Virus record (IMG/VR): IMGVR_UViG_2912375805_000003
Reading direction: 5' to 3' (one strand)
DNA: 64,000 nucleotides
DNA from: an uncultured virus (IMG/VR IMGVR_UViG_2912375805_000003)
Lineage: Duplodnaviria; Heunggongvirae; Uroviricota; Caudoviricetes
Shown here: positions 6,909 through 27,741 of the stretch, in pieces
Position numbering within the stretch: the stretch's first letter is position 1
Layout of the letters: every line of letters starts with the position of its first letter
The notes under the pieces: generated by a model
Seen by the model: the letters and a program-made list of their open reading frames with translations, nothing else
Told to the model about the DNA's origin: nothing
Databases searched by the model: none
Program-made: the position numbers and the translations under genes

Positions 6909-6919
6909 TTATTTCCCTC

Positions 6920-9100
6920 CTACTTTGTTTCTGGATAACTATCAGCTGTTCGCCATTCTCCTGAAATATAATGATTTCCTACTCGATTAGTTGCAAATTT
7001 AACTACTTGTTTACCAGTTGAATCAGTGATTACCAAAGCGCTGATTTCTCCTTGTGGCGTAGTCCACTGTACAACCGACAACGGAACCCCTACAATTGTC
7101 CATCCAATAGGAAACTGAAATCCTAAAGGAATTTCTAGTAGATTCACATGTGAAGCTACGGCTGTTGTCGAGTTTGTTTTTACTCGTGCGTGAAAGAATA
7201 CCCTATCACCAATACGTTCGAATTCGTATGAAAATTCATCAAATGCGCTTTGCTTATCTGATTGAATAGTAGTCAAACCAGATCCACTCTGTAACACACT
7301 ACCTAAGTTTTTAACTGTTGCCACATCTACTCCGTCGATCTGGACCCCATCTTTGAAATTTTTAAGTCCTAAAACGGTTTCGGGTTCAGTTAGACTAACC
7401 GTATTATTCAAGCCTTTTTCAGCATATTCAGGTGTGATATCCCAGCTGTAGTCGTTCGGATTGTTACTATCTTTCAAGCCTTCACCGAAGTATTTAAACT
7501 GACTAATATTGGGCGTTCGGGTGTTGCCTTTTTCAATCTTGAGCCAGTCAATTTGGCATGCGCCTACTGTTGATCGTGGATACTGATAAACACGGAAAAG
7601 TTTAGGCATCGCCACAACATTCGTTGGTGTGAATGTTAGAGACCATACGTCTGTCAACCCATCAACCGGCTTTAGTTCTCCTAAACGAGCAGTCCAATGA
7701 TTATACGCTACAAAGGTTTGACTTGCGGGTTTTGTTCCTTTAAGCGTGATAGTATACGTTTGACCTATCATAAGCTCTTCTTCTGTGTAACCTTGATATA
7801 TTTGGTGGTCGCCAGATTCGATTGGGAACTTAACTGTATGATCGGCAATATTTTCGTTAGGATATTCGCGACACATGTTGTAAGGTTCTGCTAATAAGTT
7901 AGGTTGGAATGGTGTAGCTGTTGAGCCTTCTTCGATTTTGATGTCATAGCTCATTTCTATTTCCCCAAGTATCCCATCTTGAGCCCTAAATTGTATCCAA
8001 GGATGGTATGCTTGTGGGCTAAATGTTGGAGTAGTTCCAGTAATACTAAACTCTTTCCATTCCTGAGTTATCGAATTACTGTTAATAGGTAAGTCTAAAA
8101 CAATCTTGCCAGTTCCACTGTCAACATACCTATATCTAATCAGTATAAGTTTTCCGTCAACTGGACTATAGTCCGCTCCAGCTCTAAGCTTAACAGTCAT
8201 TACAAGCGTTTTATTAGATGGTAGCCAGTTAGCTATACCTCTTCGTTTATAATATAGCTCTACTCCACCTTCCACTTCAGCTGATATCTTATTATATTTA
8301 AACGAGTTTTCACCTTTAGAAAGTGTTCCAGCTGAAGTATTTTGATTTTCAATTAAGTCGTATGATAGCTTACTTAACAAATTAGGATTTCCACTATAAT
8401 CATAGTTCCCGAAATCGATGCTGTTGGAGTACATCTTTTTCAGCTTTCCGAGATCACTTATTTGCTGGTTCGTTTGATCAATACGATCATTTGCTTTATC
8501 AATATTCGTATTGAGAGTTGTGACATCTTGATTGGCTTTCGTGATTTTGTCGTTTGTATTTTTTAATTTCGCATCAATCTGCGTTTCAGATTCCGTAATT
8601 TTCTGTTCAATCTCTTGCTTTCCATCAGCTAGAATTTTTTCGATTTTATCAATAGTCTGACTGAAACCATTGAAATAATAATCTTCCAATTCTGGTGTAC
8701 TATCATCGATTGGACTGCGTTTGATGTCAAAAGTAAAACGACCAGCTGTATCTAACGAGCGGTCGTTTGGGAAATCAATATAAACACTACCTTCGACAAT
8801 TCCAACATAGCCTAAAATATTATCTTCCAGCACAATGGACACAATACCATTTACACGATCTTCAATGGTGGCGAGATAGTCATGTTTTCCATAACCACCT
8901 TCTGCCGTTGCAGATCTGAACATCAGACGAATCGGAACAGTTGTCCCTTCGGGTAAGCTTTGAGGGATGCCGTTTTTCCGAACTAACTTCATTCGAAGCT
9001 TAGCTGTTCCTCGGTCATGCGACCAAAAAACAACATTCGTCCTGTTTGGACTAGTGGCTTCTGCTTGAATCACAATGATCGATTCATTAATTTTAAACAT
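6920..9100 (-). CDS. Baseplate upper protein (BppU-like) / receptor-binding protein
   Basis: BppU-type N-terminus (FWSHDRGTAKL), coiled coil, CBM-like modules ending IKIEEGSTATP and LKIEKGNTRTP. Confidence 0.8.
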   Translation of the reverse strand: MFKINESIIVIQAEATSPNRTNVVFWSHDRGTAKLRMKLVRKNGIPQSLPEGTTVPIRLMFRSATAEGGYGKHDYLATIEDRVNGIVSIVLEDNILGYVGIVEGSVYIDFPNDRSLDTAGRFTFDIKRSPIDDSTPELEDYYFNGFSQTIDKIEKILADGKQEIEQKITESETQIDAKLKNTNDKITKANQDVTTLNTNIDKANDRIDQTNQQISDLGKLKKMYSNSIDFGNYDYSGNPNLLSKLSYDLIENQNTSAGTLSKGENSFKYNKISAEVEGGVELYYKRRGIANWLPSNKTLVMTVKLRAGADYSPVDGKLILIRYRYVDSGTGKIVLDLPINSNSITQEWKEFSITGTTPTFSPQAYHPWIQFRAQDGILGEIEMSYDIKIEEGSTATPFQPNLLAEPYNMCREYPNENIADHTVKFPIESGDHQIYQGYTEEELMIGQTYTITLKGTKPASQTFVAYNHWTARLGELKPVDGLTDVWSLTFTPTNVVAMPKLFRVYQYPRSTVGACQIDWLKIEKGNTRTPNISQFKYFGEGLKDSNNPNDYSWDITPEYAEKGLNNTVSLTEPETVLGLKNFKDGVQIDGVDVATVKNLGSVLQSGSGLTTIQSDKQSAFDEFSYEFERIGDRVFFHARVKTNSTTAVASHVNLLEIPLGFQFPIGWTIVGVPLSVVQWTTPQGEISALVITDSTGKQVVKFATNRVGNHYISGEWRTADSYPETK

Positions 9101-18800: not shown

Positions 18801-21800
18801 CTAAATCTTCGTTATCTGCAAGTAATCTTTTCTCATTATCAGGAAGGTTTACCCATTGATTCCACATTCTGTCAGATGATAAAAGAACCTCTGTAAATTT
18901 AGTATTATTAGCTGAAAGAAACTTTGCATTAGATGATAACTGATTCCAACGTTTAAACATTTCTTCGGAATTAAAAAGTTTTGTAGAAAAATCTGAGTTA
19001 TCTAATAACAATTCTTTTGTGGGGTTATCTAATTGAGCCCAACTATTTAATTTTTCTTCTGATCCATCGATAGCATCGTATACTTTATACGCATTCAAAT
19101 CTAAATCTTTCACTTGAAGTTTGTAAGTATCCCATAGTCCCAAATTCATGAGAGTTTCACCCATAACTTCAGGAGTATTTGAAGTTAGGATTGCTTCTTT
19201 AGAAGGAATATCTAACTCATTCCATTTACCAGCATTTTCTAAAGCCTTGTATACATTTTTAGAACACTCATCTTCTAATAATGCTTCTTTTTCTTTCCAT
19301 TCCATATCATCCCAATAACCATTTTGTACTGCCGCTATGGAAATGACATCTTTTGCGTTCGTTGTTAGTTTCGCATCATGAACAACAGGTTTAAGTTCAT
19401 TCCATTTAGTGAAATCCTTCGTTGCTTCATTCACTACTTCTTGTACGTTAGTTTTTACTTTTCCTGTTTTTTCGTCTAAAACTAATCCATTCCAAGTTGA
19501 TCCAGCATGCGTAGCCTCATCAGCTACCATACCAAGTTGTTCTGCATTTTTTTCGGCATTATCTGCTATTTCATCCGATGTTTTCTTCGCTTGGGCTAAA
19601 ATCTTTTCATTACTTTCGAGAAAAACTTTTGTATACTGACCAGTATTGTCCATAGCAGCTGCCGTTTTGCTAAATAATTGACCATTTGATAAACTCACTT
19701 CGTTAATCAATTGTGGATATTTATTTGTTATAGCAGCTATTTGGCTATCGAATCCTTGATTTGTAGTTTTGATGTAATCATTCATTTCATCTTCTAATGC
19801 ATCAATGAATTCTTTGCTTACTCCCTTTTCCTTTAAAGCCGCCTTTTTTTCTTCAAGCATTTGTCTATAATTTTCGGTAGTTGCAGCTTTTTGTTTCGCT
19901 AAAGATTGTAACCACGTCTTCGCTTCTTCTTCTGTAGCCTGTGCAACATCACCATTCATGGCTGATAGTATCTTTTTTCTGTCTTTAGCAGAAACATCGA
20001 GCGTATCCACATACGCTTGAGAAGTTCCTTTCATCAGATCCTGTATCTGTTGTAGTTCTGAAACAGTCAAGTCTCTGTTCTGATTTGCGGCTCTTTCTCT
20101 GATTTTTTTTATTTCTTCATTGTTGTCTTTTATTTTAGAAAGAGATTGCCCTAAGGTTTCTTCTTCTGATTCAGCTACTTCTTTCATGGCATCCTGAACT
20201 GATTGAGGTAGCCCTTTTAGTGCATCGTCTAATGCCTTTATTCTACCTGTTAAAGATGTTTCCAAAGATGTTCCAGCGGTTGCGAAATTAGCCGCCATAT
20301 TATTCGCATCATCAACAGTAAAACCCTCTTTGAGAAGACCGAATTGACCATTTGCACCTTCAATATTCTTCTGTACTCCGTCAAGAGTATTATCTATTTC
20401 CTCACCGACATCTGTTCCCCATTGCTTTACTCTTTGCGAGGAATTCCAAGCTTCTTCACCAAATAATTTCCATGCTCCATAGCCAACTGCTAGTGCGCCA
20501 CCAACGCCAACAATACCAAGTAGAGCAGGACCTAACAAACCTAGTGATGTTGTCATTGCGCCTATTCCGCTAGCGCCCGCAGCAGTACTTGCAGCACTAG
20601 CTGTTTTTCCCATCATAGGGACTAACCCGCCAATACCTCCAGCTCCTGCTGTCTTTGCAGCTGCAGCACCAGCTGTTGTTACCGACGATGCAAAGGCATC
20701 CAGAGCCTTCTTTTCTGCTGCTTTCGCTGCTAAATCAACAAGGCTTTTCGTCAATCTTCCAGTAGTTGAAGTAACTTTACCTATTACTGAAGTACCAGTT
20801 CCTAAAAGCTTCAGCGCTGGACCAGCTGCTGCTGCTAATCCAACCCATTTGATAATGTTTCTTTGTTGATCATCACTCATGGCTGAGAAAGCTTTCGCCA
20901 TATTCCCTAAGTTTTTTATCAACGGTTTTGATACATTTAGACCATCACGCAACGCGTCTACAAATGGACCTCCAAGATCGATTGCTGTATCAATCACTTC
21001 GTTTTTCAACATCTTTAGCTTTGATTCAGTTGTTTCGTATCTTTTATTAGCTTCATTTGTTAAAGCTGTATTTTGTTTCCACGCGCCGTTTCCTTTTTCA
21101 ATTGCTCCTTTGAATATGTCACTAGCATTTGCAGCTCTCAATAAACTGTCGCGTAGTCGAACTTCTTTTATATCCATGTCATCCAGAACTTTGATTGCTG
21201 AAGTCCCATGTTTTTCTGAATCTTTCAGTCCTTGAATGAACTTGATGATTGCTTCTGAAGGATCACTCTTGAACAACTTCTGGAATTGTTCACTTGTAAC
21301 ACCTGCCACATTCGCAAAATTTTCAAGCGAACTTTTCGAATTGTCCGCTTCTTTATACATTTTCTTTAAATCAGATGAAGTGAATCCCATTTGCTCTGAT
21401 ACTGCTTTTAACGATTTTCCACCGTCTCTCACAGCATTTACTAAATTAACCCACGGAACACCTTGTTCTTCTGCCATCTGTTTCAGCTGATCAAAAGCGC
21501 CAAATCCTTTTTCTACAGCTAGTTGCATCTGGATCATGACCTTCGAAAAGGCAGACCCACCTGCTTCAGCTTCGACACCAACAGAGGATAGAGCAGTAGC
21601 AAATCCTAGAATTTCGCCTTGGCTCATTCCAATCTGTTTACCAGCACCCGCTAACCGCAGTCCCATTTCAGTGATTTCCGATTCGGTTGTAGCAAAATTG
21701 TTACCTAGATCAACAATGACTGATCCTAATTTATCAAAGTCTTTTTGAGACATTTGGGTTATATTAGCAAATCGTGCTAAAGAAGTTGCAGCTGTTTCTG

Positions 21801-22617: not shown

Positions 22618-23105
22618 CTACATGGATTTCAAGAAGTCTTTAAGATCAACTTCTTTTTGTTTCTCTTTCTTAGGCGAAGTGCACGCAATTTTCATCATCA
22701 TTTCAAAGGAATTATCTTCTATGTCAGATAGTGACCATCCCGCTTTCACTAACTCTCTGCATAGGTTTAAGTACATTTCTTCTGCTTCTTCGGGTGTTAC
22801 TTTTTTGCGTCTGGGTCTGGATTACTTTCAATCCCCATTACTTCTCCTAGGATGTCGTCCAATGTGCTCATTACCTTCTCAGATGGTAAGCCATCAAGAA
22901 TTTGTTCAGCTGTCAATTTGCTATCCCTGAAGATACCTACAGCAAAATCCAAATAAATGTCTAAACGATTCCAAATCATTACTCCATCTTCATTTAGCTT
23001 TTTGATTGTTTCTAAAGCTTTTCGATAATCTTTACCTGTTGTGTCTATGTTTTCATAGACTTTCTTTCCTGATTCTTCTTTCAATTCAATTCTTACTTTT
23101 GCCAT
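22618..23105 (-). CDS. Tail assembly chaperone gpG (22797-23105) and -1 frameshift product gpGT (to 22618)
   Basis: Slippery A AAA AAG before the stop (22800-22806); -1 frame VTPEEAEEMYLNLCRELV... open to just before TMP. Confidence 0.82.
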
Positions 23106-23150
23106 TTAGATTCCTCCATTATTTTCCAAATAAAAAAGCTAGTCCGAAGA

Positions 23151-23618
23151 CTAGCCCGCTGCTTTTTCAATAACTGTAATAGTACATTTTGCTACTTTAC
23201 CGCCATCCGTAGTAGTAAATGAAACTTCTGTAGTTCCGCCAACTTCAGCGTCTGTTTTTACTGTAACGTTGCCTCCAGTAACAGTAGCTACAGCTGTATT
23301 CGAACTGCTCCAGCTTCCTGTTTTGTCTGTTGCATTTGCTGGTGTTACAGTAGGAGTTAATTTTAAGGTTCCGCCTTGTTCGACTTCAGCTGTCGTTTTA
23401 TCCAACGTCACACCAGTAACTGAAATTGGAAGAGTGGTAAATGCAGGAATATCTACTTTTACTGATTCTTGACCTCCAACCACACGCGTAGCTTGGTAGT
23501 CTCCTTTAGCAACTTGAGTATTTGCTGCAATTCCAGTAATAGAAAGTGGACTTTCACCCTCTGCGACTTTTGTAAATTCAGTACCATTTTTTTTATAGAT
23601 TTTAAATGTATCTGGCAT
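23151..23618 (-). CDS. Ig-like virion accessory protein: truncated FN3-like N-domain plus Big_2 domain
   Basis: VTGVTLDKTT...LTPTVTPANATDKTGSWSSSNTAVATV (Big_2); N-part FKIYKK/LSITGIAANT/YQAT/ES...FTT. Confidence 0.82.
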   Translation of the reverse strand: MPDTFKIYKKNGTEFTKVAEGESPLSITGIAANTQVAKGDYQATRVVGGQESVKVDIPAFTTLPISVTGVTLDKTTAEVEQGGTLKLTPTVTPANATDKTGSWSSSNTAVATVTGGNVTVKTDAEVGGTTEVSFTTTDGGKVAKCTITVIEKAAG

Positions 23619-23628
23619 AGTTATCCTC

Positions 23629-23704
23629 CTAACTTAATTCAACTGTTACCCCATTAATAGTGGGAGTGATTGCTCCAACAACGGAGCTAGTTACTCCCCC
23701 GCTG
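23629..23704 (-). other. Putative -1 frameshift site and 21-aa extension of the major tail protein
   Basis: GCG GGG GAG TAA; -1 frame VTSSVVGAITPTINGVTVELS*. Confidence 0.72.
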
Positions 23705-24278
23705 CAGGAAATACCATCTCTTTCAAAGCAGTAATAGAAGCTTCTTCGTCTCCAACATATTTTGCGACTGTTTGGCCTTTAGCATCACCTTCAACATCAT
23801 TGGCAATCGCTGAAAATACATATTCTTCTGCTTCTGGTTCGAAAGCTTCATTTGTCGTAGTGTTAAGATTAATAGATTCACGACTGAATTTTCCTTTGAA
23901 CATCGCAAGCATTGCTGTATCGCCGTTCAAATCCTCCGATTCCATCAAAATTGCACAATATGGTGGCTCAGTATCTTCTCCCAAGAAGCTGATTTTGTTT
24001 GTATCGGTTTTGTAACCAAGAATTTTGTCATTTACTTCTGTTGGTAAATCTAACAATCCAAAAGTAGCTGAAACATCGCCTGTTCCTTTTTGAGAGACAT
24101 AGTAAGCGATGTTCGATCCGTAAACTTTTGATGGTTCTTTTGATAGCCCACTGATTTCAGCAGATACAGTCGCCCCTTTGTCTTGTTCACCTTCAATTAC
24201 ATATAAATTTGCTGCTGGAATCTTCCCTGTGCTGTCAAAGATCCCGATTGTCATTTTTTTGAATCCTACTAAAGTCAT
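23691..24278 (-). CDS. Major tail protein (phi13 family-like)
   Basis: 195 aa; EDTEPPYCAILMES motif; position upstream of the chaperone and TMP. Confidence 0.88.
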   Translation of the reverse strand: MTLVGFKKMTIGIFDSTGKIPAANLYVIEGEQDKGATVSAEISGLSKEPSKVYGSNIAYYVSQKGTGDVSATFGLLDLPTEVNDKILGYKTDTNKISFLGEDTEPPYCAILMESEDLNGDTAMLAMFKGKFSRESINLNTTTNEAFEPEAEEYVFSAIANDVEGDAKGQTVAKYVGDEEASITALKEMVFPAAGE

Positions 24279-24338
24279 AAAATTTTCCTCCTAATTTTGG
24301 GTAATAAAAAAAGACACGTTATTTTCGTGTCTTAATTT

Positions 24339-24749
24339 CTAATATTCGGTATCGTAAATTTTTGTATTTCCTTCGTAACGACGCGCGTCTACAAAGCGTT
24401 TTGTTTCAGAAAAGTATTCATCTAACCCTTGACCAGAAATTTGGCCAAAGCCTAGTTTTTTCATCTCTTTTTTTATCTCATATTGAATCTGCTTGCATGT
24501 TGCTCTATATTTCGATTCAACATCAATCTGTACCATATGCTCTACAGAAAGCTCTTTGTTACTTCCGTGATATGCTTCGTTAGGTGTATCTACAGGACGA
24601 AGTGTGATCATTGGCCCTGTTTTATCGGCGGTTTCAGGTTGCTCATAAAATTTAATACGATATTGCTCGGTATTCTCGTTATATGTCATTGAACGAATAT
24701 ACTCATTCAAACAAAGAGCCTCATAAATGATATTGAGCATATCTTTCAT
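24339..24749 (-). CDS. Tail completion/terminator protein
   Basis: Position before the major tail gene; VQIDV and VDARRY motifs. Confidence 0.7.
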   Translation of the reverse strand: MKDMLNIIYEALCLNEYIRSMTYNENTEQYRIKFYEQPETADKTGPMITLRPVDTPNEAYHGSNKELSVEHMVQIDVESKYRATCKQIQYEIKKEMKKLGFGQISGQGLDEYFSETKRFVDARRYEGNTKIYDTEY

Positions 24750-25150
24750 AATCTCTTTTTAACCTCCTCCCCAACAGCATCAAAATATAGTGGCTCGGAA
24801 TTTTTAAGCGATTTAGTGATTACGCCAAAACCTCTTGGCCTAATTTGCTTACCTTTTCGTGTATATCCCCATTCATTTAAGTGAATGATTCTATAACGCT
24901 GATGAGGACCATTCCAACCGATTTCAGCTTCTGCCTTGTAATTTCTATACGTAGCGTTCTTACGTACAACCTCATCAATCGTATAACCTTTGTCTTTAAA
25001 AACGGTCATGTCCGTTTGCAACTGTTTTTCTACTTTTTCAGCGCCAACATTGATTGCTTTTTTTGTTAATGTCTTAGTTTTCTTTTCTCCAAACTTTTTT
25101 TCTAAAGCTTGGATTGTTTCTTGAACGCCTTCAAACTTTACGTTACTCAT
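24746..25150 (-). CDS. HK97 gp10-like head-tail joining protein
   Basis: IIHLNEWGYT motif; synteny. Confidence 0.72.
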   Translation of the reverse strand: MSNVKFEGVQETIQALEKKFGEKKTKTLTKKAINVGAEKVEKQLQTDMTVFKDKGYTIDEVVRKNATYRNYKAEAEIGWNGPHQRYRIIHLNEWGYTRKGKQIRPRGFGVITKSLKNSEPLYFDAVGEEVKKRL

Positions 25151-25165
25151 CGTTTATCACCAAAT

Positions 25166-25528
25166 TTAAGTAATTAATTCTAATACTATCTTTACAATTG
25201 AATTTTCTTCCAAATCCGGTGAGACATCGATTATTTCCCAAACTTTATCTCCATATCGATAATCTAATATCCTTACTTTATGTTTGTTAGTAGGAATATA
25301 AGATTGATGGGGATCCCGTATTTTTATCGTAACGCCTTCTTTTGTGCCAAGAATGTCACGATCTTTCATTGATGGGTTGTAAACTAGTGCTGTACAAAAA
25401 TACAGTTCCTTTTTTTCTTCATCACCAGGTTCTGGACCCTTATTAGGTTGAAACTCAAAAAAAGTAACTGGCGTATTTAGATCACCAGCTACAATTTTAG
25501 GCTTCTTATAATTTGATTTAATTGGCAT
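25166..25528 (-). CDS. Head closure / head-tail adaptor protein
   Basis: GDLNTPVTF...WEIIDVSPD; synteny. Confidence 0.72.
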   Translation of the reverse strand: MPIKSNYKKPKIVAGDLNTPVTFFEFQPNKGPEPGDEEKKELYFCTALVYNPSMKDRDILGTKEGVTIKIRDPHQSYIPTNKHKVRILDYRYGDKVWEIIDVSPDLEENSIVKIVLELIT

Positions 25529-25796
25529 ATCCAGCACCTGCCAGATCAATTGATGCATCCATAATCATTGTTTGAAAATTGTCGTAAAAGTACTCTAGTG
25601 ATTCGTTCCGTAGATACCGAGTACGTTCATAAACTAATTCTTTTCCTTTCTCATAAGTGGAAGGATCAAAACTGCCGATTAGAGATTTTATATCGGCAAA
25701 CCCGCTCTCTAACTGTTTCCCGATATCCTCATCTTCGGAAGTATGGAAAATACGAAATCGGGCCTTATATTCTTTTATAAATTCTTCAGTGTTCAT
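25518..25796 (-). CDS. Head-tail connector (gp6-like)
   Basis: 92 aa after the capsid gene; ELVYERTRY. Confidence 0.72.
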   Translation of the reverse strand: MNTEEFIKEYKARFRIFHTSEDEDIGKQLESGFADIKSLIGSFDPSTYEKGKELVYERTRYLRNESLEYFYDNFQTMIMDASIDLAGAGYAN

Positions 25797-25809
25797 ACTC
25801 TAACCCCAT

Positions 25810-25885
25810 TTACGAAAGATTAATGACTGCCCCATCAGTCGTCGGTGTTATCTCACCAATTGCAGGGGACGTTACTCCCCCGCTG
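25810..25885 (-). other. Putative -1 frameshift site and 21-aa extension of the major capsid protein
   Basis: GCG GGG GAG TAA; -1 frame VTSPAIGEITPTTDGAVINLS*. Confidence 0.72.
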
Positions 25886-27032
25886 TAAAGTCCAAGTCAT
25901 ATACTTGTGCTGCATCATTATTTGTTGGATAGCCATTACCAAGCATGTCGACAGCATACAAAGTTGCGCGTTTCATTGCAAAAGTTTCTTTATATACATA
26001 GACTTTTTCAGCTCTTGATTGAGTAGCTTCATACTCTTTATCAACGTATGCAATGCATTTACTTTCTGGTACGTCTACAGATTCGATGATATGATCAACA
26101 GCGATAAATGGCATCGTAGTCCCATACACATTGTTTAAATTTGCAAATGTAACTCTAGCTACGATATCCCAGTAATCAACAGGATTAACAATTAGATACA
26201 CTCGTCCAGCAACAGAACGGTATTCCACTTCACCTTCATCGTCACCATCTACTTTGTATGTGTATTTAGATAATTTTTTCATCACCCCTGCAAGTTCAAG
26301 AACAATCTTCTCTTTCGCAAAAGTTAATGTCCCTGCGCTAGCTTTATCTGGATATACACCACTTGTGACCGCACCATCTAGATCTTTAAGCAATCCAATT
26401 GGCTCATCTTTACCAGAACCTGTAATAATTTTTTTAGCCCAAACATCACGTACTGCTTCACTTAAAGAAAGATTGATAAAACGGTCAATCCATCGTGGTC
26501 CTAAATCTAAGGTATCATTAGAAATTAAGAAAAATGCGGTCAACGCAAGTTGAACAAATTCAGTTGCACCAAATTCAGCATCTAGTTGGCCTTCAAGGTC
26601 TTTATGCAATGGTCCAAAAACAGCAACACCTTTACGACGTGCTCTAATTACTTTGACACGACCTACAGTTGGTGTAAAGTTAATGAGGCCTAAAATAGGA
26701 TGATCGTTTTGAAGATTTTCAAAAACACGTTCCAAAATCGTTTCTGGCCAAACTACGTCAGAATCGAAACCTCCAGATTTTACGGCTTCATTATAAAACT
26801 TTGTTTCTTCTACTGTTAGTGTAGGAATTCCACGAGCCTCTAATACACGGTTGTCCGTCACATTTTTCAATTCTTCATATTCAGCACGCACCTGTTTGCC
26901 GGCATCTTCTGCAATGGCAGTTACATATTCTTCTAGAGCAGCATTAATTTGTTCGGGTGTTGCATCTTCTTTCGAAGAAATAGCATTAAATGCCTTTTTT
27001 GCATCTGCAGTTTTATCTGTAATTTTTAACAT
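25872..27032 (-). CDS. Major capsid protein (HK97 family)
   Basis: 386 aa after the prohead protease; ITGSGKDEPIGLL motif. Confidence 0.9.
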   Translation of the reverse strand: MLKITDKTADAKKAFNAISSKEDATPEQINAALEEYVTAIAEDAGKQVRAEYEELKNVTDNRVLEARGIPTLTVEETKFYNEAVKSGGFDSDVVWPETILERVFENLQNDHPILGLINFTPTVGRVKVIRARRKGVAVFGPLHKDLEGQLDAEFGATEFVQLALTAFFLISNDTLDLGPRWIDRFINLSLSEAVRDVWAKKIITGSGKDEPIGLLKDLDGAVTSGVYPDKASAGTLTFAKEKIVLELAGVMKKLSKYTYKVDGDDEGEVEYRSVAGRVYLIVNPVDYWDIVARVTFANLNNVYGTTMPFIAVDHIIESVDVPESKCIAYVDKEYEATQSRAEKVYVYKETFAMKRATLYAVDMLGNGYPTNNDAAQVYDLDFTAGE

Positions 27033-27036
27033 ATCT

Positions 27037-27741
27037 TTATTCTCCTTTTCGCAATCGTGCGATTAATGATTTTTGTTTTGATTCTTGTTCGATTTTATTA
27101 GTAACAGGTTCCTTTAAATTCGCTATTGCAACGGCAACAGCATCTTGAATCATCGCTGCAATATTTTGAGGTTCGTTTTGTGGTTCTTCACGCTTCACAG
27201 AATTGGCAAATCCATATTTGACAGCTTCATCTGCTGTAAACCATTTTTCTTCATTCATCCATTCACGCAACTTATCAACAGATTGGCCAGTCTTATCTGA
27301 ATAAATAGCTAAGATAGAATCATCGATCGTTTCCAATGCGTTTAACGTTTTTTGGATGTCCTGTTTATTCCCCCAAGCAAATGTAGAAGCTTCATGAATC
27401 ATCAAAGAAGTCCCAACATTCATAATCACATCATTGGCACCAGCGACAATAAACGTTGCTGCGCTTGCGGCAAGCCCTGTAACTTCTACAGTAATATTTG
27501 ATGGGTGATCTTTTAAATAATTGTAAATCTCAATCCCTTCAAACACATCACCGCCTGGGCTGTTCAACTTGATTACAATATCATCGGTTACAGTATCTAG
27601 AGAGTCACGAATATCTTTAGCGTTTATGACATCATCATCACGCCAATATTTTTTCTGTACATTTCCACTCAAGGTGAGAATGTGCTTACCATTCTGAATT
27701 TCGTTAGTAAACTGAAATGGTACTTTTTTAGCTTTCGGCAT
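27037..27741 (-). CDS. ClpP-type prohead maturation protease
   Basis: LNSPGGDVFEG, GLAASAAT, LMIHEAS; start set by RBS GGAGGTG. Confidence 0.92.
   Translation of the reverse strand: MPKAKKVPFQFTNEIQNGKHILTLSGNVQKKYWRDDDVINAKDIRDSLDTVTDDIVIKLNSPGGDVFEGIEIYNYLKDHPSNITVEVTGLAASAATFIVAGANDVIMNVGTSLMIHEASTFAWGNKQDIQKTLNALETIDDSILAIYSDKTGQSVDKLREWMNEEKWFTADEAVKYGFANSVKREEPQNEPQNIAAMIQDAVAVAIANLKEPVTNKIEQESKQKSLIARLRKGE

What the first reader, a model, noticed from the sequence alone, without database searches (positions are those of the whole stretch)
23151..25885. Candidate split-FN3 'plug-and-display' system: one frameshift tag on both capsid and tail, and a partner protein lacking those strands
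Seen: the major capsid gene (25871-25885) and major tail gene (23690-23704) end in the identical minus-strand 15-mer CAGCGGGGGAGTAAC (A-G-E-stop). In both, the -1 frame stays open for exactly 21 codons: VTSPAIGEITPTTDGAVINLS (stop 25810) and VTSSVVGAITPTINGVTVELS (stop 23629). The peptides are clearly homologous while the DNA has diverged, which points to protein-level selection. The next gene (23151-23618) has its own RBS, is out of frame with the tag, and begins FKIYKK / TKVAEG / LSITGIAANT / YQATRV / ES..DIPAFTT before a Big_2 domain. Known: frameshift-extended capsid or tail proteins carrying whole Ig/FN3 domains exist (e.g. SPP1 gp17.1*), and FN3 has strands A-B-C-C'-E-F-G. Inference: the tag supplies strands A-B and the separate protein supplies C-G. 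Strand complementation would dock one Ig-like adhesin on a frameshift-set fraction of both head and tail subunits. I know of no description of this mechanism.
Basis: partly seen in the sequence, partly recalled or inferred. Interest (0 to 1): 0.9.

Follow-up and report, generated by a model that had tools for sequence, protein, structure and literature searches.

The report
Split FN3 tag-and-catcher on phage virions
A prophage appears to add, by a rare ribosomal slip, the first two strands of a small Ig-like (FN3-type) domain to some head and tail subunits, while the next gene makes a surface protein that starts with the missing five strands, so one decoration protein can probably clip onto both head and tail by completing its own fold.

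Summary
The capsid and tail-tube genes both end in CAGCGGGGGAGTAAC. In each, the -1 frame encodes a homologous 21-residue peptide that ends at a stop. The next gene encodes a 64-residue N-domain plus Big_2.

The pattern is conserved. Of 94 loci fetched through the N-domain, 80 carry two such tags and 13 carry one. Each tag ends exactly at a stop. Nearly all start 1 nt before the stop of a capsid or tail-tube gene, directly after a slippery run (G GGG GAG, G GGA AAG, A AAA AAA). Some relatives carry the tag in frame or reach it by +1 slippage.

The N-domain model superposes on the C-terminal two-thirds of FN3 domains. Natural unsplit relatives exist, and profile comparison places the tag on their first strands and the N-domain five columns further on.

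The carriers belong to at least five Pfam families. The cargo varies, and the partner gene sits after the tail gene or after the capsid gene. Trans docking by fold completion is therefore the best reading (about 0.7).

My searches found no paper describing this. Earlier unchecked notes of this scan describe similar layouts on other DNA.

The parts
25872..27032 (-). Major capsid protein gene (386 aa), the first carrier of the tag
   Evidence: ORF; Pfam Phage_capsid PF05065, E 1.7e-08
25875..25881 (-). Putative -1 slip site G GGG GAG, followed directly by the capsid stop TAA (25872-25874)
   Evidence: Sequence. G GGG GAG + stop is the commonest of the slip-site classes among distinct tag contexts in relatives (35, plus 2 offset copies). 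Slippage itself is inferred.
25813..25875 (-). Capsid tag, -1 frame, VTSPAIGEITPTTDGAVINLS, then stop TAA at 25810-25812; proposed FN3 strands A-B
   Evidence: tag HMM E 4.7e-11. The tag profile aligns to columns 5-25 of unsplit domains.
23691..24278 (-). Tail tube (major tail) protein gene (195 aa), the second carrier of the tag
   Evidence: ORF; Pfam Phage_TTP_1 PF04630, E 5.5e-18
23694..23700 (-). Putative -1 slip site G GGG GAG, followed directly by the tail stop TAA (23691-23693)
   Evidence: Sequence; identical 15-mer; slip-site classes
23632..23694 (-). Tail tag, -1 frame, VTSSVVGAITPTINGVTVELS, then stop TAG at 23629-23631
   Evidence: (E 1.8e-08)
23625..23630 (-). Ribosome-binding site AGGAGG of the partner gene; it overlaps the tag's TAG stop
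   Evidence: Sequence. Relatives also have their own RBS, with variable spacing and frame.
23427..23618 (-). Partner protein N-domain (aa 1-64): the 'catcher', proposed FN3 strands C-C'-E-F-G
   Evidence: AlphaFold2 pLDDT 94.8. Best structural matches are FN3 domains, matched on their C-terminal ~65 residues only. No Pfam family at E<=10. hhalign to columns 31-90 of unsplit domains: 99.7%, E 2.8e-26.
23178..23420 (-). Partner protein cargo: Big_2 Ig-like domain (aa 67-147). The whole gene is 23151-23618, 155 aa.
   Evidence: Pfam PF02368, E 5.1e-13; model pLDDT 96.2; PDB matches by sequence fall on the Big_2 part only
22797..23105 (-). Tail assembly chaperone gene. It ends in the heptamer A AAA AAG (22800-22806) + TAA, and the -1 frame continues into ORF 22618-22776. 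This is the same 'heptamer + stop' design as the two tag sites.
   Evidence: Pfam Phage_TAC_19, E 3.2e-20; sequence. G/GT frameshifting is established knowledge (review passages).

Best explanation
This is a natural split-domain docking system on a siphophage virion. At the last two sense codons of the capsid and tail-tube genes (G GGG GAG, directly before TAA), a fraction of ribosomes slips back one base. Instead of terminating, they add 21 residues: the first two beta-strands (A, B) of an FN3-type sandwich. The gene after the tail gene is translated on its own and makes a protein whose first 64 residues are the other five strands (C, C', E, F, G) of the same domain, followed by a Big_2 Ig-like domain. 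The incomplete domain completes its fold by taking up the two-strand tag. One decoration protein is thereby attached non-covalently to the tagged share of both head and tail subunits, and frameshift efficiency sets the density. The Big_2 cargo probably gives weak adhesion to surface carbohydrates, as proposed for other phage Ig-like domains. What the calls show: the sequence layout, its conservation, the fold of the catcher, and the homology of both halves to one unsplit domain. Inferred: the ribosomal slip, the binding, and the function of the cargo.
For: LAYOUT. There are two identical slip-site 15-mers and two homologous 21-codon -1 frames.

CONSERVATION.
- A tag HMM gave 181 hits on the gene strand against 17 weak hits on the other strand.
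- Of the 181, 170 lie in the -1 frame, 5 in frame, 2 in +1, and 4 have no upstream ORF. All but one distinct tag end exactly at a stop.
- Of 94 loci that hold the N-domain (93 fetched plus the window), 80 have two tags, 13 have one (6 of these on contigs under 8 kb) and 1 has none at E<=0.01.
- Each locus has exactly one N-domain gene. Gene order is tag-tag-partner in 69, tag-partner-tag in 11, tag-partner in 13 and partner alone in 1.

SLIP SITES. Among distinct contexts: G GGG GAG 35 (+2), G GGA AAG 15, G GGA AAA 6, and A-runs 10. Each is followed by a stop at once or after one codon. The phage's own chaperone gene uses A AAA AAG TAA in the same way.

PROTEIN-LEVEL SELECTION. Differences between tag DNAs fall 5237 / 4935 / 10545 on codon positions 1 / 2 / 3.

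FOLD.
- The N-domain model has pLDDT 94.8.
- Nearly all of the 50 best chains among 48,161 are FN3 domains (Z 4.6-7.0).
- All ten single-domain entries numbered from 1 are matched only from residue 28-49 to their end.
- Foldseek's best hits are also fn3.
- The E-strand segment has no pairing partner in the models.

UNSPLIT RELATIVES.
- 218 of 239 N-domain copies start within 12 residues of the protein's N-terminus.
- Well-scoring internal copies are preceded by a tag-like segment plus a loop of about 5-8 residues.
- hhalign places the tags on columns 5-25 (95.4%, E 1.8e-8) and the N-domain on columns 31-90 (99.7%, E 2.8e-26) of the unsplit domain.

MODULARITY.
- Of 39 representative tagged carriers, 13 are Phage_capsid, 1 Phage_cap_E, 2 Phage_capsid_4, 11 Phage_TTP_1, 1 Phage_tail_2, and 11 have no Pfam family.
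- Cargo after the N-domain varies: one or two Big_2, He_PIG, HeH-like, G5, or further FN3-like copies.

NO COVALENT FUSION. The partner's frame relative to the tag is 0 in 40 loci, +1 in 32 and +2 in 4, and it has its own RBS.

CONCERTED EVOLUTION. The capsid and tail tags of one phage are more alike than tags of different phages: 0.571 against 0.491 over 14 representatives, reached by 3 of 10,000 permutations.

CONTROLS. Six loci with homologous tail genes or known frameshifts but no N-domain gene gave 0 tag hits at E<=1.
Against: - Nothing here shows a frameshift product or binding.
- G GGG GAG is not a canonical X XXY YYZ heptamer: after the slip, the A-site tRNA-Glu would sit on GGA.
- The predicted hairpins include the slip site itself and are only modestly better than shuffles (z -1.67 and -3.24), so no clear downstream stimulator was found.
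- The N-domain alone is modelled with high confidence, so it might be stable alone.
- The structural matches are middling: no Z reaches 8, and no Foldseek E is <=0.001.
- Pfam fn3 does not match. Even unsplit relatives reach only E 0.004-0.09, below the cut-off.
- Two full-length loci (L012, L036) have a tag on the tail gene only.
- Gene conversion between the two sites could also explain why tags within one phage are alike.
- The control set is small (6 loci).
- The loci were fetched through the partner, so the converse question (tags without a partner) was not surveyed.
Confidence: 0.7

Rival explanations
1. Covalent fusion. After the -1 slip, a second recoding event at the tag's stop (readthrough, a hop or a +1 shift) joins the tail protein, the tag and the partner into one chain. 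The result would be a tail-FN3-Big_2 protein like SPP1 gp17.1*. The partner's own start would be secondary.
For: The partner gene always lies 9-18 nt after a tag's stop, and in 40 of 76 loci it is in the tag's frame. Whole Ig-like domains added by frameshifting are well known (review passages).
Against: - In the window the partner is in the +1 frame relative to the tag. Across loci the frame is 0, +1 or +2 and the spacing varies.
- Every partner gene has its own strong RBS.
- In 80 loci a second tag stands with no partner gene after it, and in 11 loci the tail tag is the orphan.
- 218 of 239 N-domain copies start at a protein N-terminus.
Confidence: 0.07
2. The tags are translated, but they act on their own (for example as short C-terminal arms between subunits), or they are decaying remnants of a formerly fused FN3 extension. 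The partner would bind the virion by some other surface, or not at all.
For: Binding was not tested. The N-domain alone is modelled confidently. Two full-length loci have only one tag.
Against: - A remnant would not keep 21 codons ending at a stop across 41 distinct two-tag combinations, nor show a third-position excess of differences.
- The tags co-occur with the partner: 93 of 94 loci with a partner have a tag, against 0 of 6 loci without one.
- The tag and the N-domain map to adjoining parts of one domain.
- Tags within one phage co-vary.
Confidence: 0.13
3. No recoding occurs. The conserved stretch after each stop is an RNA element (a terminator, or translational coupling for the next gene), and its peptide-like conservation is incidental. 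Alternatively, the extra frame is reached by transcriptional slippage and not by the ribosome.
For: The slip site pairs with the following UCCCC/GCUCC in predicted hairpins (z -1.67 and -3.24). The A-run sites in relatives (7-8 A) could allow polymerase slippage.
Against: - Differences concentrate on the third codon position of the tag frame.
- The same peptide is encoded in frame on phiEf11-type tail proteins and forms the first strands of unsplit domains.
- A run of five G is short for polymerase slippage (my knowledge).
- Contigs from two RNA libraries show no inserted or missing letters here, but contigs drop rare variants, so this is weak.
Confidence: 0.05

Closest known systems
Frameshift-derived Ig-like or FN3 C-terminal extensions of phage capsid and tail proteins (SPP1 gp17.1*, Lactobacillus phage A2, T3 gene 10; Fraser et al. 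2006 as cited in the review)
   Same: A slip at the 3' end of a major structural gene gives a minority of subunits an Ig-type surface module. Recoding may be -1, +1 or none (review passages). Relatives here also use -1, +1 or no shift.
   Different: In those systems the whole domain is encoded in the shifted frame and is covalently attached. Here only two strands (21 residues) are added. The rest of the domain, with the cargo, comes from a separate gene that serves two different carriers.
Listeria phage PSA Cps-L / Tsh-L (also A118, A500): programmed frameshifts in both the capsid and the tail genes
   Same: Both major structural genes of one phage are recoded at their 3' ends. The PSA record annotates this as ribosomal slippage (review passages).
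   Different: PSA and A118 hold neither the tag nor the N-domain. In my translation the PSA capsid extension looks like a helix-extension-helix (HeH/SAP-like) motif attached directly (the motif label is my reading, not a family search).
Donor-strand complementation in chaperone-usher pili (recalled, not searched here)
   Same: An Ig-type fold that lacks strands is completed by strands from another polypeptide. Proteins found here that begin with the catcher half and end with a tag (P0042, P0155, P0170, P0197) suggest head-to-tail chains like pilus subunits.
   Different: In pili one strand is donated from an N-terminal extension, and a chaperone and an usher take part. Here two strands (A, B) would come from a C-terminal extension made by frameshifting, on a virus particle. 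No chaperone is evident.
SpyTag/SpyCatcher 'plug-and-display' (an engineered split CnaB2 domain; recalled)
   Same: A short peptide tag and a truncated domain rebuild one fold, which lets exchangeable cargo be displayed on particles.
   Different: SpyTag/SpyCatcher is man-made and locks with an isopeptide bond. Here the split is natural, the fold is FN3-type, and nothing suggests a covalent bond.
Lambda-type G/GT tail chaperone frameshift
   Same: The same phage uses A AAA AAG followed directly by TAA for its chaperone pair, with the -1 frame starting GUA. This is the design seen at the two tag sites.
   Different: G/GT products are assembly factors that are absent from virions (review passage). 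The tags would be on virion subunits.

Membership tests
Programmed -1 ribosomal frameshift site | An in-phase slippery heptamer X XXY YYZ at the point where the frames overlap | tested here: inconclusive
   Relatives have canonical G GGA AAG (15 distinct contexts), G GGA AAA (6) and A-runs (10). The window and 36 other contexts have G GGG GAG, which fits only for the P-site tRNA.
Programmed -1 ribosomal frameshift site | A stimulatory element (a downstream structure, an upstream SD-like sequence, or a slow codon) | tested here: inconclusive
   A 0-frame stop follows the heptamer at once in nearly all contexts. The predicted hairpins include the slip site and reach only z -1.67 and -3.24.
Programmed -1 ribosomal frameshift site | A trans-frame protein product is detected | not testable with these tools
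   This needs virion mass spectrometry or a reporter assay.
Fibronectin type III domain (Pfam PF00041 fn3) | A sequence match to the family profile above its cut-off | tested here: not met
   The N-domain has no Pfam family at E<=10. Unsplit relatives reach fn3 E 0.0038-0.094, 13-18 bits against a cut-off of 25.
Fibronectin type III domain (fold level) | A seven-strand sandwich with sheets A-B-E and C'-C-F-G | tested here: inconclusive
   The model of residues 1-64 matches FN3 chains (Z 4.6-7.0, rmsd 2.4-3.9 Å, 55-62 residues aligned) over their last ~65 residues only. Foldseek's best hits are fn3, but with E >= 0.056. The completed seven-strand form was not modelled.
Frameshift-added whole Ig-like domain (SPP1 gp17.1* type) | A complete Ig/FN3 domain encoded in the shifted frame, contiguous with the carrier | tested here: not met
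   The shifted frame closes after 21 codons at both sites. The partner has its own start, and its frame relative to the tag varies.
Split-domain (fold-complementation) pair | Both pieces are homologous to adjoining parts of a single domain that also exists unsplit | tested here: met
   hhalign places the tags on columns 5-25 (95.4%, E 1.8e-8) and the N-domain on columns 31-90 (99.7%, E 2.8e-26) of an alignment of 11 unsplit copies. The upstream segments are shown.
Split-domain (fold-complementation) pair | The two pieces bind and rebuild the fold | not testable with these tools
This needs a multimer fold, ITC or pull-down, or cryo-EM.
Big_2 (PF02368) Ig-like domain | A profile match above the cut-off | tested here: met
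   Residues 67-147, 49.2 bits against a cut-off of 22.8, E 5.1e-13.
Tag/Catcher with isopeptide lock (SpyCatcher type) | A Lys-Asp/Asn isopeptide triad in a CnaB-type fold | not tested
   The fold matches are FN3 and not CnaB. I did not look for a reactive triad.

The most novel reading that the evidence does not exclude
Phages of Firmicutes carry a portable, natural 'tag and catcher' system. FN3-type domains are cut at the B-C loop and spread over separate polypeptides. A 21-residue two-strand tag can then be hung on any virion protein, by -1 or +1 slippage or in frame, and any cargo that starts with the five-strand half will dock there. Frameshift efficiency doses the decoration. One catcher gene serves head and tail at once. 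Proteins built as catcher-cargo-tag can extend the decoration into non-covalent chains, much as pilus subunits do.
Probability: 0.5. Interest if true: 0.9.

Novelty: new variant of a known kind. Interest (0 to 1): 0.8.

Why it matters
Ig-like decorations on phage heads and tails are thought to help phages stick to cell surfaces and mucus. Until now they were known either as covalent extensions or as separate proteins that bind a capsid surface. A split domain would be a third way.
- The attachment site would be a short, movable peptide.
- Its dose would be set by recoding.
- The displayed cargo would be exchangeable without touching the capsid or tail fold.

This would explain many unannotated 70-nt 'gaps' after capsid and tail genes in phages of Enterococcus, Brochothrix, Staphylococcus and Bacillus-group hosts. 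It would also explain why small proteins are annotated there as a second 'major tail protein' or simply as Ig-like. It would add a natural case of fold complementation outside pili, and it would offer a ready-made non-covalent display handle for phage particles. It is directly testable with peptides, virion mass spectrometry and cryo-EM.

Tried and rejected
- COMPLEX PREDICTION. 
- NEAR-IDENTICAL PHAGE DNA. Megablast of 23100-27100 against the phage collection found nothing.
- OWN ASSEMBLY. It is not held, so other copies in the same genome were not counted.
- TBLASTN WITH THE 21-MER. It gave only 5 weak records (E 0.3-0.6). The HMM scan of fetched loci replaced it.
- PDB BY SEQUENCE. Only the Big_2 part matches. 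The N-domain profile has no hit at E<=10.
- LONGER HOMOLOGUES. A word-index search with residues 1-65 for fused forms gave 2 proteins, both with the N-domain at the very N-terminus. Unsplit forms came only from the exhaustive profile search.
- TUC2009 BppA. It was the best structural match (5e7t_B, Z 7.0). I read passages of PMC4742702 and found no mention of strand complementation. I treat the match as fold likeness only.
- PSA AND A118. I considered them possible experimental precedents for this very tag and rejected that: neither holds the tag or the N-domain. Dorscht et al. 2009 is not held.
- RNA EVIDENCE. Contigs of two metatranscriptome libraries from one study cover the region from a near-identical variant, without indels. 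The tool notes that this does not show transcription, and contigs hide rare variants. Two raw RNA runs with the same species label laid 0 reads. This is evidence neither way.
- TYPED-SEGMENT ALIGNMENT. The comparison was made in a script from the stored files instead.
- LITERATURE. Searches for a published description and passages of four candidate papers gave none. The library lacks most subscription journals, so absence from print is not proven.
Full report
OBSERVATION

On the minus strand, the tail-tube gene (23691-24278; Pfam Phage_TTP_1) and the major capsid gene (25872-27032; Phage_capsid) both end in GCG GGG GAG TAA. Both lie within the same 15-mer, CAGCGGGGGAGTAAC. That 15-mer occurs only at these two places in 64 kb. 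About 0.02 matches are expected, and no shuffle out of 100 gave two.

Read one base back, from the G before TAA, both sites stay open for 21 codons:
- Tail: VTSSVVGAITPTINGVTVELS, then TAG.
- Capsid: VTSPAIGEITPTTDGAVINLS, then TAA.

The tail tag's TAG overlaps AGGAGG, the ribosome-binding site of the next gene (23151-23618, 155 aa). That gene is in a different frame from the tag. Residues 67-147 are a Big_2 domain. Residues 1-64 match no Pfam family, even at E<=10.

THE LAYOUT IS CONSERVED

Two annotated phages show the same plan.
- Brochothrix phage BtpYZU02 ends its capsid and tail-tube genes in G GGA AAG + stop. The -1 peptides are VDSPVVAKVNSTTTGANVELS and VTIPLVGAVNATSTGANVNLT, and a partner gene follows.
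- Enterococcus phage phiEf11 ends its capsid gene in A AAA AAA TAG, with -1 peptide IEAPKVESVIPTTDGASIVLS. Its tail-tube protein belongs to a different Pfam family and carries the tag in frame at its C-terminus (...VDSPSVESVTPTFDGASTELS). A partner gene follows again.
- None of these records annotates the tags.

With an alignment of 11 partner N-domains I fetched 80 viral contigs and 13 genome contigs. The genome contigs come from Enterococcus, Oceanobacillus, Siminovitchia, Bacillus, Atopostipes, and one MAG labelled Veillonella.

A profile built from six tags, run over all stop-to-stop frames, gave these results.
- There were 181 hits on the gene strand and 17 weak hits on the other strand.
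- Of the 181, 170 are in the -1 frame of an upstream ORF of 150-400 aa, 5 are in frame, 2 are in +1, and 4 have no ORF. With one exception among distinct tags, each ends exactly at a stop.
- At E<=0.01, 80 of 94 loci (93 fetched plus the window) have two tags, 13 have one and 1 has none. Six of the 13 are contigs under 8 kb. Two full-length loci (L012, L036) have only the tail tag.
- Every locus has exactly one N-domain gene.
- Six control loci hold homologous tail-tube genes or known frameshifts but no N-domain gene: Latilactobacillus TMW 1.46 P2, Streptococcus Javan64 and Javan126, Staphylococcus CF1, and Listeria PSA and A118. They gave no tag hit at E<=1.

RECODING

Among distinct contexts, the last seven sense bases are:
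- G GGG GAG in 35 (plus 2 offset copies);
- G GGA AAG in 15;
- G GGA AAA in 6;
- A-runs in 10;
- a few others.

In nearly all contexts the stop follows at once, so the tag's first codon is GUA or AUA. The chaperone gene of this same phage ends in A AAA AAG TAA, and its -1 frame runs into the next ORF. That is the well-known G/GT frameshift (review passages), built in the same way.

Differences between tag DNAs fall 5237, 4935 and 10545 on codon positions 1, 2 and 3. This is the signature of selection on the peptide, although the pairs compared are not independent.

A Staphylococcus aureus siphophage (vB_SauS_IMEP5) reaches equivalent tags by a +1 shift at CCC TAA on both genes. So -1, +1 and in-frame solutions all exist, as noted before for whole Ig-like extensions.

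G GGG GAG is not a canonical heptamer, and I found no convincing downstream stimulator. The predicted hairpins include the slip site and score z -1.67 and -3.24. That ribosomes slip here is therefore inferred from conservation and was not shown.

WHAT THE TWO HALVES ARE

AlphaFold2 models the partner with pLDDT 96.2 and residues 1-64 alone with 94.8. Strands are called at residues 4-11, 14-21 and 41-47, with short bridges beyond. The conserved SPLSITG stretch, which would be strand E, has no pairing partner.

Against 48,161 representative PDB chains:
- nearly all of the 50 best rows are FN3 domains (Z 4.6-7.0, 55-62 residues aligned);
- all ten single-domain entries numbered from 1 are matched only from residue 28-49 to their end, for example 7jgu_A at 31-91 of 90 and 8oty_A at 36-101 of 101.

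Foldseek's best hits are also fn3, but none reaches E<=0.001. These scores are middling, so 'FN3' is a statement about fold, not about family.

The stronger evidence comes from sequence. A profile search of 1.84 billion representatives gave 184 proteins at E<=0.001. Of 239 N-domain copies in the proteins held, 218 begin within 12 residues of the N-terminus. In the well-scoring internal copies (P0204, P0162, P0163, P0125, P0178, P0220, P0260, P0265), the N-domain is preceded by a tag-like segment and a loop of about 5-8 residues. In P0204 this reads ...SPTLTELTPTKDGFTVKLT-GSNEDS-TFRIYDKSG....

In the alignment of 11 such unsplit copies, the upstream 28 residues were taken blind to their content. 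Profile comparison places the tags on columns 5-25 (95.4%, E 1.8e-8, 21 of 21 columns) and the N-domain on columns 31-90 (99.7%, E 2.8e-26). The tag and the catcher are therefore the two parts of one domain, cut at the B-C loop.

WHY DOCKING IN TRANS IS THE BEST READING

- One partner gene stands beside one tag, while a second tag stands alone. In 69 loci the partner follows the tail gene, and in 11 it follows the capsid gene with the tail tag about 2.4 kb downstream.
- The partner's frame relative to the adjacent tag is 0, +1 or +2 (40, 32 and 4 loci), and it always has its own RBS. This argues against a covalent fusion.
- The carriers are unrelated. Of 39 representative tagged ORFs, 13 are Phage_capsid, 1 Phage_cap_E, 2 Phage_capsid_4, 11 Phage_TTP_1, 1 Phage_tail_2, and 11 have no Pfam family.
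- The cargo after the N-domain varies: one or two Big_2, He_PIG, an HeH-like motif (below Pfam's cut-off), G5, further FN3-like copies, or a longer tail-tip-like protein.
- The capsid and tail tags of one phage resemble each other more than tags of other phages: 0.574 against 0.522 over 41 distinct pairs, reached by 0 of 10,000 permutations, and 0.571 against 0.491 over 14 representatives, reached by 3 of 10,000. This is expected if both must fit the same catcher, although gene conversion could do the same.

WHAT REMAINS OPEN

No call tested binding or frameshifting. Contigs of two RNA libraries cover the region without indels, but that shows neither transcription nor the absence of rare slippage, and two raw RNA runs laid no reads.

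COMPARISON WITH WHAT IS KNOWN

The closest known kind is the Ig-like or FN3 extension added to capsid or tail proteins by frameshifting: SPP1 gp17.1*, phage A2 and T3. Related to it is the double recoding of cps and tsh in Listeria phages. Here the defining feature of that kind, a whole domain in the shifted frame, is not met. In mechanism the system resembles donor-strand complementation in pili and the engineered SpyTag/SpyCatcher pair (both recalled, not searched).

Eight full-text searches and passages of four candidate papers gave no description of a split FN3 on phage virions. Most subscription journals are not in the library.

Earlier notes of this scan (unchecked AI notes) describe the same idea on other DNA: Staphylococcus phage Twort, a Lactiplantibacillus phage with +1 tags, a -1 capsid tag with a catcher, and a half-PKD plug. 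I saw the Twort-type trio independently in the K-like phage Stab22.

VERDICT

The interpretation held in every test that could be run. Binding and slippage still need the bench. I rate it a new variant of a known kind (frameshift-dosed Ig-like decoration), with a mechanism that, as far as I could find, has not been described for viruses.

Noticed in passing
window 22797-23105 and 22618-22776 (- strand); slip site 22800-22806: The tail assembly chaperone pair has the classical G/GT layout. The gene ends in A AAA AAG TAA, and the -1 frame (KKVTPEEAEEMYLNL...) runs into the next ORF. This is the same 'heptamer then stop, new frame starts GUA' design as at the capsid and tail tag sites.
   Followed up: partly
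L099 (Staphylococcus phage Stab22, K-like myophage) 19338-20737: Three adjacent genes form a chain of split domains. g149 ends in frame with a tag-like PSTPENVQVTPTEDGADVTAE. g150 is catcher + Big_2 and ends with another tag-like segment. g151 is a catcher alone (72 aa). The trio lies in the replication region, far from the capsid genes. The tag hit on g149 is weak (E 1.1), but it sits exactly at the C-terminus.
   Followed up: partly
Proteins P0042, P0155, P0170, P0197, P0177: Some relatives begin with the five-strand catcher half and end with a two-strand tag, with or without cargo between. The linker is too short for the tag to fold back on its own catcher, if the domain ends lie apart as in tandem FN3 arrays. 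Head-to-tail, non-covalent chains are therefore possible.
   Followed up: no
L098 (Staphylococcus phage vB_SauS_IMEP5) 5090-5180, 7240-7345, 8900-9003: The layout is the same but uses +1 recoding. The capsid and tail genes end in ACT CCC TAA and TCA CCC TAA, and the +1 frames give KPPQNVEVTANAKSVVISAE and NTPQNVVVDADTNSASITAE. A catcher + 2x Big_2 gene follows. The record also holds a duplicated tail gene with a truncated catcher copy. My tag profile did not detect these divergent tags.
   Followed up: partly
L100 (Listeria phage PSA) 2149-2291: The annotated +1 extension of the PSA capsid protein reads ...KVVELKEELDKRGITYNTSDLKSDLILKLEE. This looks like the HeH/SAP-type motif that some Enterococcus partners (P0051, P0103, P0113) carry as cargo behind the catcher. 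The same cargo may therefore be attached directly in one phage and through the split domain in another. The motif label is my reading; Pfam HeH matched P0051 and P0103 only below its cut-off.
   Followed up: no
window 23620-23704 and 25801-25885 (- strand): In both predicted RNA folds the G-run of the slip site pairs with the codons for the tag's Ser-Ser/Ser-Pro (GCUCC / UCCCCUGC) a few bases downstream. Whether this hairpin matters for slippage, or merely follows from the coding, is open.
   Followed up: partly
L052 and L090 (Bacillus sp. contig) 6918-6980: This is the only distinct tag in a +1 relation to its carrier. The carrier ORF ends ...AGG GAA ACT AAC TGA, and the tag starts 5 nt before the stop. 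It could be a different recoding site or an indel in the record. No second tag was found in these full-length loci.
   Followed up: no
Fold search rows 1 and 2: The two best structural matches of the catcher are phage proteins: Tuc2009 BppA residues 227-284 (Z 7.0) and residues 4-71 of a 477-aa chain in the Mycobacteriophage Bxb1 tail tip (Z 6.6). The Bxb1 match lies at the chain's N-terminus, like the catcher. I did not check whether that domain is completed by another chain in the solved structure.
   Followed up: no
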